The notes under the pieces are model-generated. The model ran no database searches. It was not told where the DNA came from and saw only the letters and a list, made by a program, of their open reading frames with translations. Shown one piece after another: positions 6,707 through 13,185 of a DNA stretch of 64,000 nucleotides. Source of the DNA: Escherichia coli (GTDB lineage Bacteria; Pseudomonadota; Gammaproteobacteria; Enterobacterales; Enterobacteriaceae); NCBI RefSeq assembly GCF_044324875.1, contig NZ_CP172185.1; one strand, written 5' to 3'. Numbering within the stretch: position 1 is the first letter of the stretch; each line of letters begins with the position of its first letter. A program made the translations under genes and the position numbers.

Positions 6707-7170
6707 TGAACGTTCTGCCCGTCCTTGATGCGGTACTGGCCCGGTTACGCGAGAACCTGCCGCAACTGCAGGTGGAGTACTTCCCGGAGAAACCGGCTGA
6801 ATATCGCCTGAACCATCCGGTTGGCGCGTTGCTGCTGAGCTATGCCGGTTCGCGCTTTGACAGGCCGGATGATACCGGTGCGGTGATCCAGCCTCAGACT
6901 ATCCAGCTCTGCGTCACGGTGGTCTTCCGCCAGCTCAACGGTAAAAAAGGGGCGATTAATGTCCTGGATGCTGTCCGCCGCATTCTCGGTGGCTACACCC
7001 CGCCCGGCTGCCGCCGTCGTATCTGGCTGACCCGCGAGGTGTTTATCGGTGAAGTCAGGGGGCTGTGGCAATACGCCCTCGACTTCGCGACTGAAAGCGT
7101 CTTTATCGAAGACAGCGATTTACCGTCCGGCCCGCTGTTAACCGAAGTGAACTATGAGGAAAGCGAGTGA
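6706..7170 (+). CDS. Head-tail joining / tail completion protein (Mu gp37-like)
   Basis: 154 aa, ATGA overlap with upstream gene. Confidence 0.5.
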   Translation: MNVLPVLDAVLARLRENLPQLQVEYFPEKPAEYRLNHPVGALLLSYAGSRFDRPDDTGAVIQPQTIQLCVTVVFRQLNGKKGAINVLDAVRRILGGYTPPGCRRRIWLTREVFIGEVRGLWQYALDFATESVFIEDSDLPSGPLLTEVNYEESE

Positions 7171-7421
7171 TGAAAGCATACCGCTATTCCGGCCCGGCCA
7201 GCGGCGTCACGCTGTCGGACGGAACCGAAATCCTGCTCTGGCCGGGGAAGACGTTTTCCCTGCCGGAGGAGCATGACTACGTGAAGGTACTGGTGGCGCT
7301 GAAACATCTGACGCCGGTACCTGAAGAGACTAAACTCGCCGGCACACCGGCTGTGCAGTCACCAAAGCGCAGAAGCAGCAGTGACAGCGAAGTGAAAACG
7401 GAGGACACCCATGGCAGCTAA
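7170..7421 (+). CDS. Small conserved phage protein (Mu gp38-like)
   Basis: 83-84 aa ORF overlapping both neighbours, upstream of sheath. Confidence 0.45.
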   Translation: MKAYRYSGPASGVTLSDGTEILLWPGKTFSLPEEHDYVKVLVALKHLTPVPEETKLAGTPAVQSPKRRSSSDSEVKTEDTHGS

Positions 7422-8838
7422 CTATCTGCATGGTCCCGAAACCATTGAGGTGGAAAACGGTGCCCGCCCGGTTAAAACGGTGAAATCTGCCGTTATTGGC
7501 CTGATTGGTACCGCCCCGATGGGGGACGTCAATACGCTGGTACAGTGCCTGTCTGAGAAAGACGCAGCGGCATTTGGCAGCCAGTTCACCGGCTTTACCA
7601 TTCCGCAGGCGCTGGATGCGATTTATGACCATGGTGCAGGCACCGTTCTGGTCATTAACGTCCTCGACCCGGCGAAACATAAAACGGCGATCCAGGGTGA
7701 AGTGGTTACCTTTGACAAATCGACAGGGCAGGCCAGACTTGCGCATCCGGTTGTCGCTAATGTGGTGGTGAAAAACAGTGAAGGCAGCACCACCCACACG
7801 GCGAACACGGACTACCGTGTTGATGCGCAGGCGGGTGTGCTCACGAACCTGGGCAAGGCTATTGAGGCCGGTGGCAGCGTGAAGGTGAGCTATGAGTACG
7901 CGGACCCGTCGAAGGTGACTGCGGCGGACATCATCGGCGGGGTGAACAGCGCCGGAAACCGAACCGGCATGAAGCTGCTTAACGACAGCTTCAACCTGTA
8001 CGGCTATTTTGCCAAAATTCTGATTGCGCCGGTGTTCTGCACCCAGAAGAGTGTAGCAGTTGAGCTTATCGCCATGACAGAGAAGCTGGGCGCGGTAACC
8101 TACATTGATGCGCCTGTCGGTACCACCTTTGCACAGGCTCTGGCAGGTCGTGGCCCGGAAGGCACCATTAACTTCAATACCAGCTCCGACCGCGTCCGTC
8201 TGTGCTATCCGCATGTGAAGGTATATGACCCGGTGACAAACACGGAGCGTCTGGAGCCGCTCAGCCAGCGTGCAGCAGGTCTGCGTGCCAGAGTCGATCT
8301 GGACAAGGGCTACTGGTGGTCATCCTCCAATCAGGAGATTCTGGGGATCACCGGCGTGGAGCGCCAGCTGTCCGCGATGATTGATGACCCGCAGAGTGAG
8401 GTGAACCTGCTTAACGAACAGGGGATCACCACGGTATTCAGCAGTTACGGCAGCGGCCTTCGTCTGTGGGGTAACCGGACGGCAGCATGGCCAACGGTCA
8501 CCCATATGCGTAACTTTGAGAACGTTCGCCGCACCGGTGATGTGATCAACGAGTCCATTCGTTATTTCAGCCAGCAGTACATCGACATGCCGATTACTCA
8601 GGCGCTGATTGATGCACTGACGGAGTCGGTCAACGCCTACGGTCGCAAAATGACTGGTGATGGTGCGGTACTGGGCTTCCGTTGCTGGTTTGATCCGGCC
8701 CGCAATCCGGAGACGGAGCTGGCCGCCGGGCACCTGTTGCTGAGCTACAAATATACGCCACCACCGCCGCTGGAGCGACTGACGTTTGAGACTGAGATCA
8801 CCTCGGAATACCTGTTAACCCTGAAAGGGGGCAACTGA
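7411..8838 (+). CDS. Contractile tail sheath protein
   Basis: 475 aa immediately upstream of tube gene; myovirus sheath size and position. Confidence 0.9.
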   Translation: MAANYLHGPETIEVENGARPVKTVKSAVIGLIGTAPMGDVNTLVQCLSEKDAAAFGSQFTGFTIPQALDAIYDHGAGTVLVINVLDPAKHKTAIQGEVVTFDKSTGQARLAHPVVANVVVKNSEGSTTHTANTDYRVDAQAGVLTNLGKAIEAGGSVKVSYEYADPSKVTAADIIGGVNSAGNRTGMKLLNDSFNLYGYFAKILIAPVFCTQKSVAVELIAMTEKLGAVTYIDAPVGTTFAQALAGRGPEGTINFNTSSDRVRLCYPHVKVYDPVTNTERLEPLSQRAAGLRARVDLDKGYWWSSSNQEILGITGVERQLSAMIDDPQSEVNLLNEQGITTVFSSYGSGLRLWGNRTAAWPTVTHMRNFENVRRTGDVINESIRYFSQQYIDMPITQALIDALTESVNAYGRKMTGDGAVLGFRCWFDPARNPETELAAGHLLLSYKYTPPPPLERLTFETEITSEYLLTLKGGN

Positions 8839-9359
8839 TGTCAAAGATTGAGATAAACCGCATCACGAATGCCAACATCTATCTGGATGGTACTAACCTG
8901 CTGGGACGGGCTGAGGAAGTTAAACTCCCCGATGTCTCCATGATTATGCAGGAACACAAGGCGCTGGGGATGGTGGGTAAGGTGGAACTCCCGGCTGGTT
9001 TTGACAAACTGGAAGGCGAAATCAAATGGAACAGCTTTTACCGCGATGCGATGCTGTCTGCCGCGAACCCGTACAGGTCGCTGGCACTGCAGTGTCGTTC
9101 CAGCGTCCAGCGCTACAGCTCGCAGGGGCTGATTGACGAAATCCCGCTGGTCACCTTCCTGACGATTATGTTCAAGAAGAACCCGCTGGGGACGTTCAAA
9201 CAGCACGAGAACGCCGAGTTCTCCAGTAGCTTCACATGCACGTATATCAGACAGGTACTGGATGGTGAAGAGCTGCTGCAACTGGACTATCTGGCCAACA
9301 TCTTCCGGGTCGGCGGTGTTGATCAACTGACTGACTACCGTATCAATATCGGGGGCTGA
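8838..9359 (+). CDS. Tail tube protein
   Basis: 173 aa, ATGA overlap with sheath. Confidence 0.85.
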   Translation: MSKIEINRITNANIYLDGTNLLGRAEEVKLPDVSMIMQEHKALGMVGKVELPAGFDKLEGEIKWNSFYRDAMLSAANPYRSLALQCRSSVQRYSSQGLIDEIPLVTFLTIMFKKNPLGTFKQHENAEFSSSFTCTYIRQVLDGEELLQLDYLANIFRVGGVDQLTDYRINIGG

Positions 9360-9361
9360 CG

Positions 9362-9643
9362 GTGAGTGTTGAACTGACGGATAAAGGAGGACGATGTGCG
9401 GCACTGGGCATGTCAAATGGTACGTGGTTTACCCTCCTTGATATTCCGGGGGTGGAAACCCTTTTTAATACCCGTAAAACCAATGACCCGATTGACTGCA
9501 CACGTTCAAAGGCCCGCAGACTGGCGGATTTGATTGAAGCATGGGAGCCTCCCGACCACTGGTTCTCCGGCACCGGCAAATCTGAGGGAAAGACGCTTCT
9601 CATCGCTTTCCTGCGTAACTGCAAGGGGTTTCGCACTTGCTGA
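9362..9643 (+). CDS. Hypothetical protein, possible moron between tube and chaperone genes (coding status uncertain)
   Basis: 93-aa ORF from GTG 9362 (or 77 aa from ATG 9410); no family recognised; followed by terminator-like hairpin. Confidence 0.3.
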   Translation: MSVELTDKGGRCAALGMSNGTWFTLLDIPGVETLFNTRKTNDPIDCTRSKARRLADLIEAWEPPDHWFSGTGKSEGKTLLIAFLRNCKGFRTC

Positions 9644-9649
9644 CATCAC

Positions 9650-9675
9650 AGGGGCTCCGGCCCCTTCTTCTTAAT
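9650..9675 (+). terminator. Rho-independent terminator-like hairpin
   Basis: AGGGGC-TCCG-GCCCCT stem-loop followed by TCTTCTT. Confidence 0.5.
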
Positions 9676-9740: not shown

Positions 9741-10076
9741 ATGTCACAGACCCCATCCGATACTTTTAAATTGTCTTATCCCTTCACCACTGCTGCAGGC
9801 ACCAGAATTGAGCTGGTTGAACTGAAACGCCTGACGGTAAAAGACCTGAAGCAGGTGCGCAAAATCAGCAAAAACCCGGCAGACTGGGACGAACCGCTGA
9901 TTGCCCGCAGTACTGGTCTTCTCCCGGAAGATCTCGACAATATGGATCTGGCTGATTACCTGCAGTTACAGAAACGATTTCAGCTCATCACGGGGATGGG
10001 TGAGAGCGACAAAGGCGCTGACGCAGGCGCAGGGGCTGCTGGCGAGATGGTTCCGGTTTCAGCCGGGGGAGATTGA
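9741..10076 (+). CDS. Tail assembly chaperone (P2 gpE / lambda G analogue)
   Basis: 111 aa between tube and tape measure genes; RBS AGGAG before ATG. Confidence 0.65.
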   Translation: MSQTPSDTFKLSYPFTTAAGTRIELVELKRLTVKDLKQVRKISKNPADWDEPLIARSTGLLPEDLDNMDLADYLQLQKRFQLITGMGESDKGADAGAGAAGEMVPVSAGGD

Positions 10077-10158
10077 TGCCCTCGATACTGACGATCTGGA
10101 GATGTGGCTGGAGCAGGCTGAAGAGCAAATAAAAAGCGAGTACGGCGACAAATCATAG
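9901..10158 (+). other. Overlapping open frame (+1 relative to chaperone); candidate programmed-frameshift extension
   Basis: Frame open 9901-10158 with no ATG; G5 run at 10062-10070 just before the chaperone stop. Confidence 0.4.
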
Positions 10159-10233: not shown

Positions 10234-13185
10234 ATGTCGGGACAGTTTTCAGTCGGCGTTGTTATCGGCGGGATGATTGGCAGCACATTCCGTTCTGCAA
10301 TGAGCGGTACCCGCCGTGCGCTTGATTCCCTGAGCGATACCTCACGCCGCCTGCAGGAACGTCAGAACGCTTTAACCCGTGCAACAGAACGTTATGGTCA
10401 ACTGGGCTCTTCCCGGATGCAGCATCTCAACAGCGAGCTGCTGCGGGTAAGCCGCACCATGGAGCAAATTGAGCGCCAGCAGCGCCGTCTGTCAGCGGCA
10501 TCAGCCACCAGTGATGCGCTGAAAGCTAACCGCATGGCGCTGTATGGTCAGGGGATTGAAGCGTATGGCATGGCACAGACTGTTTATCATACGGTTTCCC
10601 CTGCCGTTCAGCAGTCCATGTCTTTTCAGGACAAAATGATTGATATGTCGATCACCGCAAAATATGACAATAAAACGCGGGATGCACTTGCCGGACAGAT
10701 AAAAGGCTGGGCGCAAAAATACAATCAGTATCAGGATGAACTGCAGGAGGCGGTGGGTTCGCTCATCAGCGACAATATTGATAACTTGTCAGATATCGGT
10801 TTTCTGATGCCGGATATTGCCCGCGCGGCAACGGCAACACGCACGTCATCTCAGGACTGGGCAAAAGTGGCCGCAGTCTGGCAAAACTCCCTGAAAGGTG
10901 CGGCCAGAGATTTTAGTGCCGTCCAGAATATTATGGCTTATGCCGGTGACCAGGGGTCATTTGAAATCCCGGATCAGGTCAAGTGGATGCAGTCCCTGGC
11001 CCCAATGATGGCGGGTATTGCCAGTGGAAAAGAGGCTGTTGCTGAAATCGGGGCCAGTCTCCAGATAGCAAAAATCGGTGCGGGCTCCACCGACGAAGCA
11101 GCCAATAATTTTAAAAACTTTCTTACCAAAATTTTTGCCCGCGATACTCAGAAACAGTTTGCTGATCTGGGTATTGATTTGCAGGGTTCTGTTGCGAGTT
11201 ATAAGGCTGCGGGGATCTCTCCGATTGAAGGGATGTTGAGTGTTATAGAACGTTACCTCAATGCCAAAAGCCCCGAAGCGCTGGCCGGCTTCAAATCCGC
11301 CATGAAAATAAAGAATGATACGGCAAGAGATGAGGCACTTCAGGCTCTGGCGAAAAACTTTGGTCTGGGCGATATGTTCGCGGATATGCAGGTCATGGCA
11401 TTTATCCGCCCGATGCTGGCCAACATGGACAGATATCGCGAGATCCGTGCCGGTGCTCTCAGGGCTGCGGATAACGATTTGCTTGCCAGTGCTTACGATC
11501 AGCGGCTGAAATCTCCCCTTGAAGCCACTAAAGCGCTTATGGTCAGCAGTCGCGATCTGGCTATTACGCTGGGCGATCAGCTCGCCCCCTCTTTTATTTC
11601 TCTGACTCAGGAGCTGATCCCACTCATTCAGGGGGCAAAACACTGGGTGGCGACTCACCCGCAATTTGTCAGTGGGGCTTTTAAGCTCATCAGTGCGCTC
11701 CTTGCGATTAAGATAGCGACTGTTGGTCTCAAACTGGGGCTGAATCTCCTTATTTCCCCCTTTGTGAACGTCTGGAAAACTGCTGTTTTACTCCGGACCA
11801 ACTGGCATCGACTGACTACCGCACTAGGAGAAGGTGGCAAATTACGCTGGCTTGTCACTGGATTTAGCCGACTGACCAGCGGAGGACTGAAACTCAGCAA
11901 AGTTCTGGCGGGCAGCCTCGTTCGCGGTTTTATGAGCGCTGCACGTGCCGTTCTCTGGATTGGGCGAGCGCTGATGATGAATCCCATCGGTCTCGTTATC
12001 ACCGCTGTCGCGGCAGCAGCTTACCTTATCTACCGCAACTGGGGGACAGTCAGTGGCTGGTTTAAACAGCGCTGGGCTGACATTCAGGAAGCCTTTAACG
12101 GCGGTATCGCGGGAACTGGTAAGCTGCTGATTAACTGGTCGCCGGCAGGGCTGCTCTATAAAGCCTTTGCGGCTGCGCTGAAATATTTCGGCGTTGCTCT
12201 GCCGGCAAAGTTCACCGACTTCGGTGGCCATCTTGTCGACGGTCTGATTAACGGTATCAAAAACAAATGGGGGTCGCTCAAATCCAGTGTAACCGGAATG
12301 GGTGACAGCATCAGTAGCTGGTTTAAACAGTGCTGGTCTGACATTCAGGAGGCCTTTAACGGCGGTATCGCGGGAACTGGTAAGCTGCTGATTAACTGGT
12401 CGCCGGCAGGTCTGCTCTATAAAGCCTTTGCAGCTGCGCTGAAATATCTTGGTGTTGATCTGCCGGCAAAGTTCACCGACTTCGGTGGCCATCTTGTCGA
12501 CGGTCTGATTAACGGTATCAAAAACAAATGGGAGTCGCTCAAATCCAGTGTAACCGGAATGGGTGACAGCATCAGTGGCTGGTTCAGTGAAAAGCTGGGT
12601 ATTCATTCGCCGAGCCGCGTGTTTATGGGCTTTGGTGACAATATCGCGCAGGGGGCCGCCATTGGCCTGCAGCGGAGCACTCCGATTGCAGCTCTGGCCG
12701 GGCAGCGAATGGCCAGTGAACTGCTCCCCAGAATGCCCGTGAGCATTCAGGGGCCAGAAATACGGGATAACACTTCAGGTGTTCGCTTCAGTATGCCGTT
12801 GCCCGATATCAACGGGTTTATGTCGTCTGCTAAAAATGCGATCGGATCCGTAATCAATAGTTTGTCTTCCATGCCCGCTATTCCGATCTCCACCCGGGCA
12901 TCGACTTTACCAGGTCAACGTCTGGCAAATGAGATGACACCGGATGTTCCCCGTATCCCCTCGCCTGAAATCCTGGCTGCCGGATATTCAGGCCGTGGTG
13001 CAGCTGCAACCGGCGGTGGAACGTCTGGTGGTATCCAGGTCAGCTTTAATCCTCAGTTTTTCCTCAATGGCAGGGAAACCACAGCGCCTGCAGGACTGAC
13101 TGGTGCCCTGAATATGAGTCTGCATGAGCTGGAAAAAATGCTGGAGCGTCTGCTGGCTCAGAAACAACGTAAGGAGTACCGCTGA
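10234..13185 (+). CDS. Tail tape measure protein
   Basis: 983 aa, N-terminal coiled-coil-like region, hydrophobic core segments, position between chaperone and baseplate genes. Confidence 0.9.
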   Translation: MSGQFSVGVVIGGMIGSTFRSAMSGTRRALDSLSDTSRRLQERQNALTRATERYGQLGSSRMQHLNSELLRVSRTMEQIERQQRRLSAASATSDALKANRMALYGQGIEAYGMAQTVYHTVSPAVQQSMSFQDKMIDMSITAKYDNKTRDALAGQIKGWAQKYNQYQDELQEAVGSLISDNIDNLSDIGFLMPDIARAATATRTSSQDWAKVAAVWQNSLKGAARDFSAVQNIMAYAGDQGSFEIPDQVKWMQSLAPMMAGIASGKEAVAEIGASLQIAKIGAGSTDEAANNFKNFLTKIFARDTQKQFADLGIDLQGSVASYKAAGISPIEGMLSVIERYLNAKSPEALAGFKSAMKIKNDTARDEALQALAKNFGLGDMFADMQVMAFIRPMLANMDRYREIRAGALRAADNDLLASAYDQRLKSPLEATKALMVSSRDLAITLGDQLAPSFISLTQELIPLIQGAKHWVATHPQFVSGAFKLISALLAIKIATVGLKLGLNLLISPFVNVWKTAVLLRTNWHRLTTALGEGGKLRWLVTGFSRLTSGGLKLSKVLAGSLVRGFMSAARAVLWIGRALMMNPIGLVITAVAAAAYLIYRNWGTVSGWFKQRWADIQEAFNGGIAGTGKLLINWSPAGLLYKAFAAALKYFGVALPAKFTDFGGHLVDGLINGIKNKWGSLKSSVTGMGDSISSWFKQCWSDIQEAFNGGIAGTGKLLINWSPAGLLYKAFAAALKYLGVDLPAKFTDFGGHLVDGLINGIKNKWESLKSSVTGMGDSISGWFSEKLGIHSPSRVFMGFGDNIAQGAAIGLQRSTPIAALAGQRMASELLPRMPVSIQGPEIRDNTSGVRFSMPLPDINGFMSSAKNAIGSVINSLSSMPAIPISTRASTLPGQRLANEMTPDVPRIPSPEILAAGYSGRGAAATGGGTSGGIQVSFNPQFFLNGRETTAPAGLTGALNMSLHELEKMLERLLAQKQRKEYR
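12058..12582 (+). repeat. Direct tandem duplication, 2 x 261 bp (87 aa), inside tape measure gene
   Basis: Copies at about 12058-12318 and 12319-12579 differ at about 11 positions. Confidence 0.9.

What the first reader, a model, noticed from the sequence alone, without database searches (positions are those of the whole stretch)
9901..10158. Chaperone overlap requires a +1 or -2 frame change, not the usual -1
The frame open across 9901-10158 has no ATG and extends 82 nt past the chaperone stop, and sits at +1 relative to the chaperone. A G5 run (CCGGGGGAG, 10062-10070) lies two codons before the stop at 10074-10076. A shift there would add only about 28 residues (EIDALDTDDLEMWLEQAEEQIKSEYGDKS), much less than a lambda GT-type extension. 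An alternative is an independent GTG start at 9997.
Basis: inference. Interest (0 to 1): 0.45.

Follow-up and report, generated by a model that had tools for sequence, protein, structure and literature searches.

The report
Tail chaperone +1 frameshift at UUU_C
This is the rarer forward (+1) form of a well-known phage tail-gene frameshift, and it is not annotated in this phage family.

Summary
The overlap is real. A frame at +1 to the 111-aa tail assembly chaperone (9741-10076) stays open from 9901 to 10158. In many relatives the chaperone stop lies upstream of the G5 run (10065-10069). In others the run is lost through changes that are synonymous in the +1 frame. The run also sits inside a conserved P2 GpE(E')-like domain (LLARWFRFQPGEIDAL...).

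Purifying selection switches from frame 0 to frame +1 at about 9981-9997. In 135 unique related loci (15 clusters, GC 43-66%) the invariant Phe80 codon is always TTT, followed by C in 134 and by T in one. Whenever the preceding residue is Arg, its codon is CGA. Stop codons in relatives confine the shift to 11 codons around this site, and TTT_C is the only invariant sequence there. No start codon is conserved.

Best explanation: a +1 ribosomal frameshift at CGA_UUU_C (9975-9981), with tRNA-Phe moving from UUU to UUC. The product would be 138 aa (chaperone 1-80 plus 58 aa), comparable to P2 gpE+E' at 142 aa. This is a new variant of a known kind. It has not been shown experimentally.

The parts
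9741..10076 (+). Tail assembly chaperone ORF in frame 0 (111 aa). The Phage_TAC_7 domain covers residues 8-81. Residues 82-111 are a G/A-rich tail of variable length that shows no sign of selection in frame 0.
   Evidence: ORF. Pfam PF10109, E = 1.3e-20. phrog_166 tail protein. Close relatives carry alleles of 90, 104 and 111 aa. Frame-0 synonymous/nonsynonymous counts across 9997-10076 are 661/2797.
9975..9981 (+). Proposed +1 shift site CGA_UUU_C: E-site CGA (Arg79), P-site UUU (Phe80), then C. tRNA-Phe would re-pair from UUU (9978-9980) to UUC (9979-9981).
   Evidence: The Phe codon is TTT in 135 of 135 unique +1-type loci. The next base is C in 134 and T in 1. All 15 clusters at 60% identity carry it, while TTT+C makes up 0-17% of Phe codons in the flanking genes. 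Arg is CGA in 109 of 109 cases, against 9% CGA among Arg codons in the flanks. It is the only invariant block within the 11-codon window allowed by stop codons.
9982..10158 (+). Segment read in the +1 frame after the shift: 58 codons (SSSRGWVRATKALTQAQGLLARWFRFQPGEIDALDTDDLEMWLEQAEEQIKSEYGDKS) plus TAG. It is the equivalent of P2 E'.
   Evidence: The codon position with most variation flips to position 3 of the +1 frame from 9981-9996 onward. The +1-frame synonymous/nonsynonymous counts are 2590/798 across 9997-10076. phrog_8286, E = 9e-34.
9997..9999 (+). Trp codon in the +1 frame. It marks the start of the conserved part of the E'-like domain and is present in most lineages (in 11 of the 14 diverse sequences aligned).
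10039..10137 (+). Core of the GpE-like domain (LARWFRFQPGEIDALDTDDLEMWLEQAEEQIKS) in the +1 frame.
   Evidence: Pfam PF06528 Phage_P2_GpE, E = 0.036 and 0.015 for the window sequence. 11 of 14 diverse relatives score E <= 0.1, best 1.1e-5. hhalign against P2 E' gives probability 92%, E = 5e-7. PGAP names this ORF 'GpE family phage tail protein' in some genomes.
10065..10069 (+). It encodes part of Pro-Gly-Glu in the +1 frame and is not the conserved shift site.
   Evidence: It lies downstream of the frame-0 stop in many relatives and is degraded by changes that are synonymous in the +1 frame.
8838..9359 (+). Major tail tube gene (context: upstream partner in the canonical gene order).
   Evidence: RefSeq: phage major tail tube protein.
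10234..13185 (+). Tail tape measure gene (context: downstream partner in the canonical gene order).
   Evidence: phrog_28 and phrog_5690. RefSeq annotation.

Best explanation
The window carries the tail module of a BcepMu-like myovirus prophage of E. coli. The gene between the tube and tape-measure genes would give two proteins from one start codon.

Most ribosomes read frame 0 and make the short chaperone. Its functional part is residues 1 to about 81, the Phage_TAC_7 domain.

A minority of ribosomes, with tRNA-Phe in the P site on UUU (9978-9980), slip one base forward onto UUC (9979-9981). They continue in the +1 frame through 58 more codons to TAG at 10156-10158. The product is a 138-aa fusion whose C-terminal part is a P2 GpE(E')-like domain.

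By analogy with lambda gpG/gpGT and P2 gpE/gpE+E', both proteins would coat the tape measure. The rare extended form would recruit the tube protein, so the fixed low ratio set by the slip matters for tail assembly.

What is shown here by comparative sequence analysis:
- the second frame is under purifying selection;
- selection switches frame at 9981-9997;
- the shift must fall within 11 codons around Phe80;
- UUU_C is invariant there.

What is inferred: the slip mechanism itself, its low efficiency, any role of the conserved E-site CGA codon, and the assembly function of the two products.
For: (1) Gene order and families. The order is sheath, tube, small ORF, chaperone (PF10109, E = 1.3e-20), tape measure.

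(2) The +1 frame encodes a GpE-like domain. phrog_8286 scores E = 9e-34. Pfam PF06528 is hit by 11 of 14 diverse members. hhalign against P2 E' gives 92% probability.

(3) Frame relationship. Of 246 related loci, 234 have the domain at +1, 7 Pasteurellaceae-type loci have it at -1, and 5 have no detectable domain.

(4) Substitution pattern in 32 ungapped relatives. The most variable codon position flips from frame-0 position 3 to +1-frame position 3 between 9966-9995 and 9981-10010. Across 9997-10076 the synonymous/nonsynonymous counts are 661/2797 in frame 0 and 2590/798 in frame +1.

(5) Bounds from stop codons. In 13 unique loci the +1 frame opens only 3 codons before the Phe codon. In 9 unique loci frame 0 stops 8 codons after it. 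Within that window only TTT C is invariant across 15 clusters.

(6) Codon choice. TTT occurs in 135 of 135 loci and the next base is C or T in all. This includes hosts at 59-66% GC, where TTT is only 0-35% of Phe codons and TTT+C is 0-17%.

(7) CGA is used in all 109 cases where the preceding residue is Arg, against a 9% background.

(8) There is no conserved start codon or SD sequence for the second frame.

(9) Precedent. UUU_Ynn is described as especially prone to +1 shifting in bacteria (PMC5009743). P-site slippage on UUU_C within UCC_UUU_CGU is the influenza PA-X mechanism (PMC3498833). BcepMu itself has UCC_UUU_CGC at this site.

(10) A 90-aa allele of the chaperone, which stops 52 nt before the G run, is seen on 914 contigs (P0015).
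Against: - There are no protein data. The fusion product has not been observed, and efficiency cannot be estimated from sequence.
- The usual stimulators of +1 shifting are missing. The frame-0 A-site codon is usually CAG or CAA, not a rare or stop codon. There is no SD-like sequence 3 nt upstream. There is no significant downstream RNA structure (z = -0.88; no covariation).
- Between 9982 and 9996 the substitution counts do not favour either frame (279/322 against 345/424). For the enteric clade alone, a slip a few codons further on, such as GGG_N at 9993-9996, cannot be excluded.
- The heptamer CGATTTC is not rare in the window (12 copies, about 10 expected). The case rests on positional conservation.
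- The clusters are not fully independent phylogenetically.
Confidence: 0.75

Rival explanations
1. One reading: a Mu-like -2 (or +1) slip on the G5 run GGG_GGA at 10065-10070, two codons before the stop, which would add about 29 residues.
For: Phage Mu's verified -2 shift is on a similar run, CGG_GGG_CGA, close to the stop. In the window, re-pairing of tRNA-Gly on the run is formally possible. One-base deletions in this run occur in database sequences (P0003, P0004, P0005), so the run is mutable.
Against: The run lies after the frame-0 stop in many relatives. It is reduced to G4 or absent in others, through changes that are synonymous in the +1 frame. The +1 frame is under selection for about 70 nt upstream of it. 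The run sits inside the conserved GpE motif. The Mu extension is not homologous to this domain (hhalign probability 0.3%).
Confidence: 0.03
2. The second frame is a separate small gene with its own start codon (GTG at 10000 in the window; ATG, GTG or CTG elsewhere). This is how PGAP, PHROGs and the BcepMu record (gp42) annotate it.
For: Most loci have some ATG, GTG or TTG in the open +1 stretch (118 of 126). phrog_8286 models begin at the GTG. PGAP-49-aa 'GpE family' ORFs here.
Against: Start positions are scattered, from 2 to 37 codons after Phe80. 8 of 126 unique loci have no start codon at all, 35 have no ATG, and only 11 have an SD-like sequence. This model does not explain the invariant TTT_C, the CGA, or the position of the switch in selection. 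In P2, the E' domain is made only as a fusion.
Confidence: 0.08
3. A +1 slip at another site between 9982 and 9996, for example tRNA-Gly on GGG_A (9993-9996) just before the conserved Trp codon. This would be specific to the enteric lineage.
For: Frame-0 residues Q-x-I-T-G-[LM]-G look better conserved than the +1 residues there. ACN varies synonymously in frame 0. GGG_N is retained in most enteric loci.
Against: The site is absent in the Salmonella/Citrobacter-type, Burkholderia, Pseudomonas and Ralstonia lineages (ACC_G, AGC_A, GAA_C). Those lineages still have the same +1 arrangement and TTT_C. Dual coding explains the frame-0 conservation equally well.
Confidence: 0.1
4. The overlap is a chance open frame or a decaying remnant and is not expressed.
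For: None beyond the absence of annotation in most records.
Against: There is strong purifying selection on the +1 frame (2590 synonymous against 798 nonsynonymous). It is conserved across Enterobacterales, Burkholderiales and Pseudomonas, and the domain is homologous to P2 E'.
Confidence: 0.01

Closest known systems
Phage P2 gpE / gpE+E' (PF10109 + PF06528)
   Same: Same position between the tube and tape-measure genes. Same chaperone family. Homologous E'-type extension (hhalign 92%). Similar fusion size (138 aa against 142 aa). The shift falls a few codons after the end of the chaperone domain, at a Phe codon.
   Different: P2 shifts -1 on G_GUU_UUU_UG (T6G). Here the extension is in the +1 frame and the conserved site is UUU_C. 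Here frame 0 runs on for 30 more codons with no sign of selection, against 7 in P2.
Phage Mu gp41 and its -2 frameshift product (Xu, Hendrix and Duda 2004)
   Same: A Mu-type myovirus tail module. The extension lies in the frame reached by +1 or -2. A G5 run lies near the chaperone stop in the window.
   Different: Mu's verified site is CGG_GGG_CGA. Here the G run is neither conserved nor usable in relatives. The Mu extension is not detectably homologous. A -2 re-pairing at UUU_C is not possible.
Lambda gpG/gpGT paradigm of tail assembly chaperone frameshifting
   Same: Two nested products from one start, in a gene just upstream of the tape-measure gene. The second ORF has no start signal of its own. 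A low-level shift would set the ratio of the two products.
   Different: Lambda uses -1 on G_GGA_AAG. There is no sequence similarity. This is a myovirus, not a siphovirus.
Influenza A PA-X shift site UCC_UUU_CGU, and UUU_Ynn +1 shifting in bacteria
   Same: P-site slippage of tRNA-Phe from UUU to UUC. A conserved E-site codon. No stop codon and no RNA structure needed. BcepMu-lineage loci have UCC_UUU_CGC, the same as the influenza cassette apart from the last base.
   Different: The host translation system and the genes involved are different. In most loci here the E-site codon is CGA and the A-site codon is CAG, CAA or CUG, which are not rare.
BcepMu gp41/gp42/gp43 as annotated in AY539836
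   Same: Homologous locus. gp41 is the chaperone and gp42 is the +1-frame GpE-like ORF.
   Different: The record treats gp42 as a separate gene that slips into gp43. The comparative data here indicate instead a gp41-to-gp42 +1 shift at UCC_UUU_CGC. No gp43 equivalent exists in the window, where only 75 nt separate the TAG from the tape-measure start.

Membership tests
Tail assembly chaperone with programmed frameshift (lambda G/GT class, Xu et al. 2004) | Two overlapping ORFs located between the major tail (tube) gene and the tape-measure gene | tested here: met
   Tube 8838-9359, chaperone 9741-10076, +1 ORF running to 10158, tape measure 10234-13185.
Tail assembly chaperone with programmed frameshift (lambda G/GT class, Xu et al. 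2004) | A conserved slippery site in the overlap, and a second ORF without its own conserved start | tested here: met
   TTT_C (or TTT_T) in 135 of 135 unique loci. Start codons are scattered or absent.
Tail assembly chaperone with programmed frameshift (lambda G/GT class, Xu et al. 2004) | Both the short and the extended product are made, at a low fixed ratio, and both are needed for tail assembly | not testable with these tools
   This needs protein detection and genetics.
P2 gpE / gpE+E' family | N-terminal Phage_TAC_7 (PF10109) domain | tested here: met
   E = 1.3e-20, residues 8-81.
P2 gpE / gpE+E' family | C-terminal extension of the Phage_P2_GpE (PF06528) type | tested here: met
   The window sequence is weak on its own (E = 0.015-0.036). 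11 of 14 relatives score <= 0.1 and 4 score <= 0.001. The profile against P2 E' gives hhalign probability 92%, E = 5e-7.
P2 gpE / gpE+E' family | A -1 frameshift on a T-rich heptamer (GGTTTTTTG) | tested here: not met
   The extension is in the +1 frame in 234 of 246 loci. There is no -1 heptamer.
Mu-type -2 frameshift on a G run | A G5-6 run upstream of the chaperone stop, conserved among relatives | tested here: not met
   The run lies after the stop in many relatives and is degraded in others.
Mu-type -2 frameshift on a G run | An extension homologous to the Mu frameshift extension | tested here: not met
   hhalign probability 0.3%.
UUU_Y P-site +1 slippage (bacterial UUU_Ynn; influenza PA-X UCC_UUU_CGU) | A UUU codon followed by a pyrimidine, at the 5' end of a conserved +1-frame ORF | tested here: met
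   and the switch of selection at 9981-9997.
UUU_Y P-site +1 slippage (bacterial UUU_Ynn; influenza PA-X UCC_UUU_CGU) | A slowly decoded frame-0 A-site codon | tested here: not met
   The A-site codon is CAG in 76, CAA in 27, CGC in 11, CUG in 11, CGU in 4 and CGG in 2 unique loci. Most of these are common codons.
UUU_Y P-site +1 slippage (bacterial UUU_Ynn; influenza PA-X UCC_UUU_CGU) | A restricted E-site codon that modulates slippage | tested here: inconclusive
   CGA is used in 109 of 109 Arg cases (9% background), and UCC in the BcepMu lineage. Whether the codon has any functional effect was not tested.

The most novel reading that the evidence does not exclude
CGA_UUU_C (UCC_UUU_CGC in the Burkholderia lineage) may be a minimal, self-contained bacterial +1 frameshift cassette. 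A weakly paired E-site codon (CGA, read through an inosine-adenine wobble) together with P-site UUU_C would set a low constitutive ratio of fusion to chaperone, with no stop codon, SD-like element or RNA structure. That would make it a bacterial counterpart of the influenza PA-X site. It would be conserved across BcepMu-like myophages and would be present in prophages that match in about 15% of complete E. coli genomes (820 of 5426).
Probability: 0.45. Interest if true: 0.6.

Novelty: new variant of a known kind. Interest (0 to 1): 0.45.

Why it matters
**Annotation.**
- The family is currently annotated as a 111-aa 'phage tail assembly protein', with an occasional orphan 'GpE family' ORF alongside it.
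- In BcepMu it is annotated as a gp42/gp43 slip.
- The data here indicate a single gene with a +1 recoding site. They also indicate that the last 30 codons of the annotated chaperone are not under selection.

**Frameshifting.**
- Naturally selected +1 frameshift sites in bacteria that lack a stop codon or an SD stimulator are few.
- A site conserved in 15 sequence clusters (60% identity), with an invariant UUU_C and a fixed rare E-site codon, is a ready-made system for testing E-site effects on frame maintenance.

**Phage engineering.**
- Anyone engineering these prophages or tailocin-like tails needs to know that a synonymous change at Phe80 or Arg79 could abolish tail assembly.

Tried and rejected
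- **Downstream RNA structure as a stimulator.** The fold of 9975-10080 gives z = -0.88. The alignment fold has a positive covariation term. Rejected.
- **NCBIfam.** No family matches either frame.
- **PDB sequence search.** Neither the chaperone profile nor the E' profile finds a relative.
- **Enrichment of CGATTTC in the window.** 12 copies against about 10 expected, so not informative.
- **Natural in-frame fusions as evidence for the junction.** The 138-aa 'fusion' proteins in the protein database have junctions at various homopolymers: the G5 run, near 10013, and at the Trp codon. They look like one-base indels or sequencing errors, so they do not locate the programmed site.
- **A slip on AAA_G at 10011-10014.** It is not conserved even in the closest clade, which has AAC_CAG there.
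- **A -2 slip.** No re-pairing is possible at UUU_C or at NUG_G before the Trp codon (inference from the sequence).
- **Transcriptional slippage.** A run of three T is too short (established knowledge).
- **hhalign of the chaperone profile against single P2 E and Mu gp41 sequences.** Too weak (E = 0.04-0.05) to align the Phe positions exactly.
- **Papers not held.** Xu et al. 2004 and Schwartz and Curran 1997 could not be read directly. Their content is cited through PMC5009743, PMC3498833 and PMC2628397.

Full report
**What is in the sequence**

The region lies in a contractile-tail module:

| Gene | Coordinates |
|---|---|
| Sheath | 7411-8838 |
| Tube | 8838-9359 |
| Small conserved ORF | 9362-9643 |
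| 111-aa ORF | 9741-10076 |
| Tape measure | 10234-13185 |

P2 U/D-like and baseplate genes follow.

- The 111-aa protein is a Phage_TAC_7 tail assembly chaperone. Pfam PF10109 scores E = 1.3e-20 over residues 8-81.
- The locus is 99% identical to Escherichia phage PhiKM, which is classified as Bcepmuvirus.
- Matches occur in 820 of 5426 complete E. coli genomes.
- A frame at +1 to the chaperone is open from 9901 to 10158 and runs 82 nt past the chaperone stop.
CCGGGGGAG is at 10063-10071. The GTG is at 10000-10002, and 9997-9999 is TGG. One ATG exists at 10102.

**The second frame is a real coding frame**

- Its C-terminal part matches phrog_8286 (E = 9e-34).
- It matches Pfam Phage_P2_GpE weakly (E = 0.036). 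The matched stretch, LARWFRFQPGEIDALDTDDLEMWLEQAEEQIKS, begins upstream of the G5 run.
- PGAP sometimes calls a 46-49-aa 'GpE family phage tail protein' here.
- A profile of 14 diverse +1-frame sequences aligns with the E' part of P2 gpE+E' at 92% probability. Eleven of the 14 hit PF06528 at E <= 0.1.
- The profile does not resemble Mu's frameshift extension.

**The G5 run is not the shift site**

- In many close relatives (KP12, EcPF16 and many IMG/VR contigs) the chaperone ends at ...GEVV-TAG, 12 nt upstream of the G run. The +1 frame still reads LLARWFRFQPGEIDAL... unchanged.
- Other relatives have CCT_GGG_GAG or CCA_GGG_GAG, which is synonymous in the +1 frame. Others have PPSE or QPSE with no G run at all.
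- An allele that stops after residue 90 is found on 914 contigs (P0015).
- The run simply encodes Pro-Gly-Glu of the GpE motif. That motif aligns with P2's FHWPPSEL.

**Where the frame changes**

I collected 246 related loci from IMG/VR, GTDB genomes, phage records and RefSeq.

- The GpE-like domain is at +1 in 234 loci.
- It is at -1 in 7 Pasteurellaceae-type loci.
- It is undetected in 5.

In 32 ungapped relatives the most variable codon position is frame-0 position 3 as far as the 9966-9995 window. From the 9981-10010 window onward it is frame-0 position 1, which is position 3 of the +1 frame. Single-change codon differences give these synonymous/nonsynonymous counts:

| Region | Frame 0 | Frame +1 |
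|---|---|---|
| 9741-9977 | 9255/2937 | 1795/11111 |
| 9997-10076 | 661/2797 | 2590/798 |

So the last 27 codons of the annotated chaperone evolve as the unselected frame of an overlap.

Stop codons narrow the site further. In 13 unique loci (Ralstonia, Pseudomonas, Pandoraea and others) the +1 frame opens only 3 codons before the invariant Phe80 codon. In 9 unique loci frame 0 stops 8 codons after it. If the site is homologous across the family, it lies within those 11 codons.

**The conserved signal**

- Within that window the only invariant nucleotides across 15 clusters (60% identity) are TTT C.
- The Phe codon is TTT in 135 of 135 unique +1-type loci. The next base is C in 134 and T in one.
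- This holds in hosts at 59-66% GC, where TTT is 0-35% of Phe codons in the flanking genes.
- Among all Phe codons, 'TTT followed by C' is 0-17% per cluster. The naive product over the 15 clusters is about 1e-23. That is a rough figure, because the clusters are not fully independent.
- The four representative sequences of the -1-type loci do not have TTT at that column.
- When the preceding residue is Arg, its codon is CGA in 109 of 109 unique loci, against 9% CGA among Arg codons in the flanks. CGA is a rare codon in E. coli (3.8 per 1000; table in PMC3498833).
- The BcepMu lineage has UCC_UUU_CGC.

**Mechanism**

The simplest reading is P-site slippage. tRNA-Phe (anticodon GAA) on UUU re-pairs one base forward with UUC, and decoding continues with AGC at 9982.

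- The product is residues 1-80 plus 58 residues, 138 aa in total. P2 gpE+E' is 142 aa.
- UUU_Ynn is described as especially prone to +1 shifting in bacteria (PMC5009743).
- UUU_C P-site slippage within UCC_UUU_CGU is the established influenza PA-X mechanism, and the E-site codon modulates its efficiency (PMC3498833).
- A -2 slip cannot re-pair at this site.
- I found no stimulatory RNA structure, no SD-like element and no rare A-site codon.
- I therefore infer a low efficiency, of the order reported for Mu (2.2%, quoted in PMC3498833). This is inference only.
- The function of the two products is taken from the lambda G/GT and P2 E/E+E' paradigm (PMC5009743). It was not tested here.

**Rivals**

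- *Independent initiation.* This is how PGAP, PHROGs and the BcepMu record treat the ORF. However, +1-frame starts are scattered from 2 to 37 codons after Phe80. Eight of 126 unique loci have no start at all, 35 have no ATG, and only 11 have an SD-like sequence. This model does not explain TTT_C or CGA.
- *A slip at GGG_N (9993-9996).* It fits the enteric clade only. It cannot be fully excluded for the window, because 9982-9996 shows no clear frame preference (279/322 against 345/424).
- *'Fusion' proteins of 138 aa in the protein database.* Their junctions fall at several homopolymers, including the G5 run. They look like one-base indels or sequencing errors.

**Comparison and novelty**

Frameshifting in tail assembly chaperones is well known, and -1, -2 and +1 cases have all been reported (PMC5009743). 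This locus is a member of the P2 E/E+E' protein family by both domains. It fails that family's -1 criterion and also Mu's G-run criterion.

In the papers I could search I found no description of a +1 site for BcepMu-type phages. The KS10 paper explicitly failed to find a site in a related chaperone (PMC2628397). The BcepMu record proposes a different pair, gp42/gp43. I could not read Xu et al. 2004.

I therefore rate this a new variant of a known kind, of moderate interest.

Noticed in passing
window 12050-12584: The tape-measure gene contains a 261-bp tandem duplication (2.0 copies, 95% identical), which repeats an 87-aa block. Relatives have shorter tape-measure genes (2466 and 2691 nt against 2952 nt here). 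The PhiKM record has a sequencing gap at this place. The duplication would be expected to lengthen the tail.
   Followed up: partly
window 9650-9665: A terminator-like hairpin (AGGGGCTCCGGCCCCT followed by TCTTCTT) lies between the small ORF 9362-9643 and the chaperone gene, inside what should be one late tail operon. It might lower expression of the chaperone and tape measure relative to the sheath and tube.
   Followed up: no
window 9362-9643: A 93-aa ORF of unknown function (phrog_1239, E = 1e-47) is inserted between the tube and chaperone genes. It is conserved in the enteric relatives. It is absent from BcepMu, where only about 120 nt separate those genes.
   Followed up: no
L066 (BcepMu AY539836) 6859-7364: The BcepMu record annotates gp42 as a lambda G analogue that slips into gp43. 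gp42 is the +1-frame GpE-like ORF that overlaps gp41. gp43 looks like a spurious GC-rich frame overlapping the start of the tape-measure gene. The window has no equivalent of it.
   Followed up: partly
L067 (NZ_PJIO01000028.1, 'Arthrobacter sp. GMC3'): An 8241-bp contig of an Arthrobacter assembly carries this E. coli prophage region; its chaperone is 97% identical to the window's at the protein level. It has the same length and coordinates as an IMG/VR contig (L024/L106). It is probably contamination of the assembly.
   Followed up: no
window 10011-10013 and 10065-10069; proteins P0003-P0005, P0015: There is allelic variation in the unselected tail of the chaperone. A 90-aa nonsense allele (CAG to TAG) occurs on 914 contigs. 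PGAP flags that allele as a pseudogene with an 'internal stop' in strain EcPF7. One-base deletions in the G5 run create in-frame 138-aa 'fusions' on 8-12 contigs.
   Followed up: partly
window 8838-9356: PHROGs labels the best family for this protein (phrog_55) as 'head closure'. RefSeq and the gene order identify it as the major tail tube protein. This is probably a mislabel in the library.
   Followed up: no
flanking genes of all related loci: In the genes flanking these loci, 'TTT followed by C' is only 0-17% of Phe codons (about 5% in the enteric clusters), although TTT is about 50% of Phe codons there. This may reflect general avoidance of the shift-prone UUU_C context.
   Followed up: no
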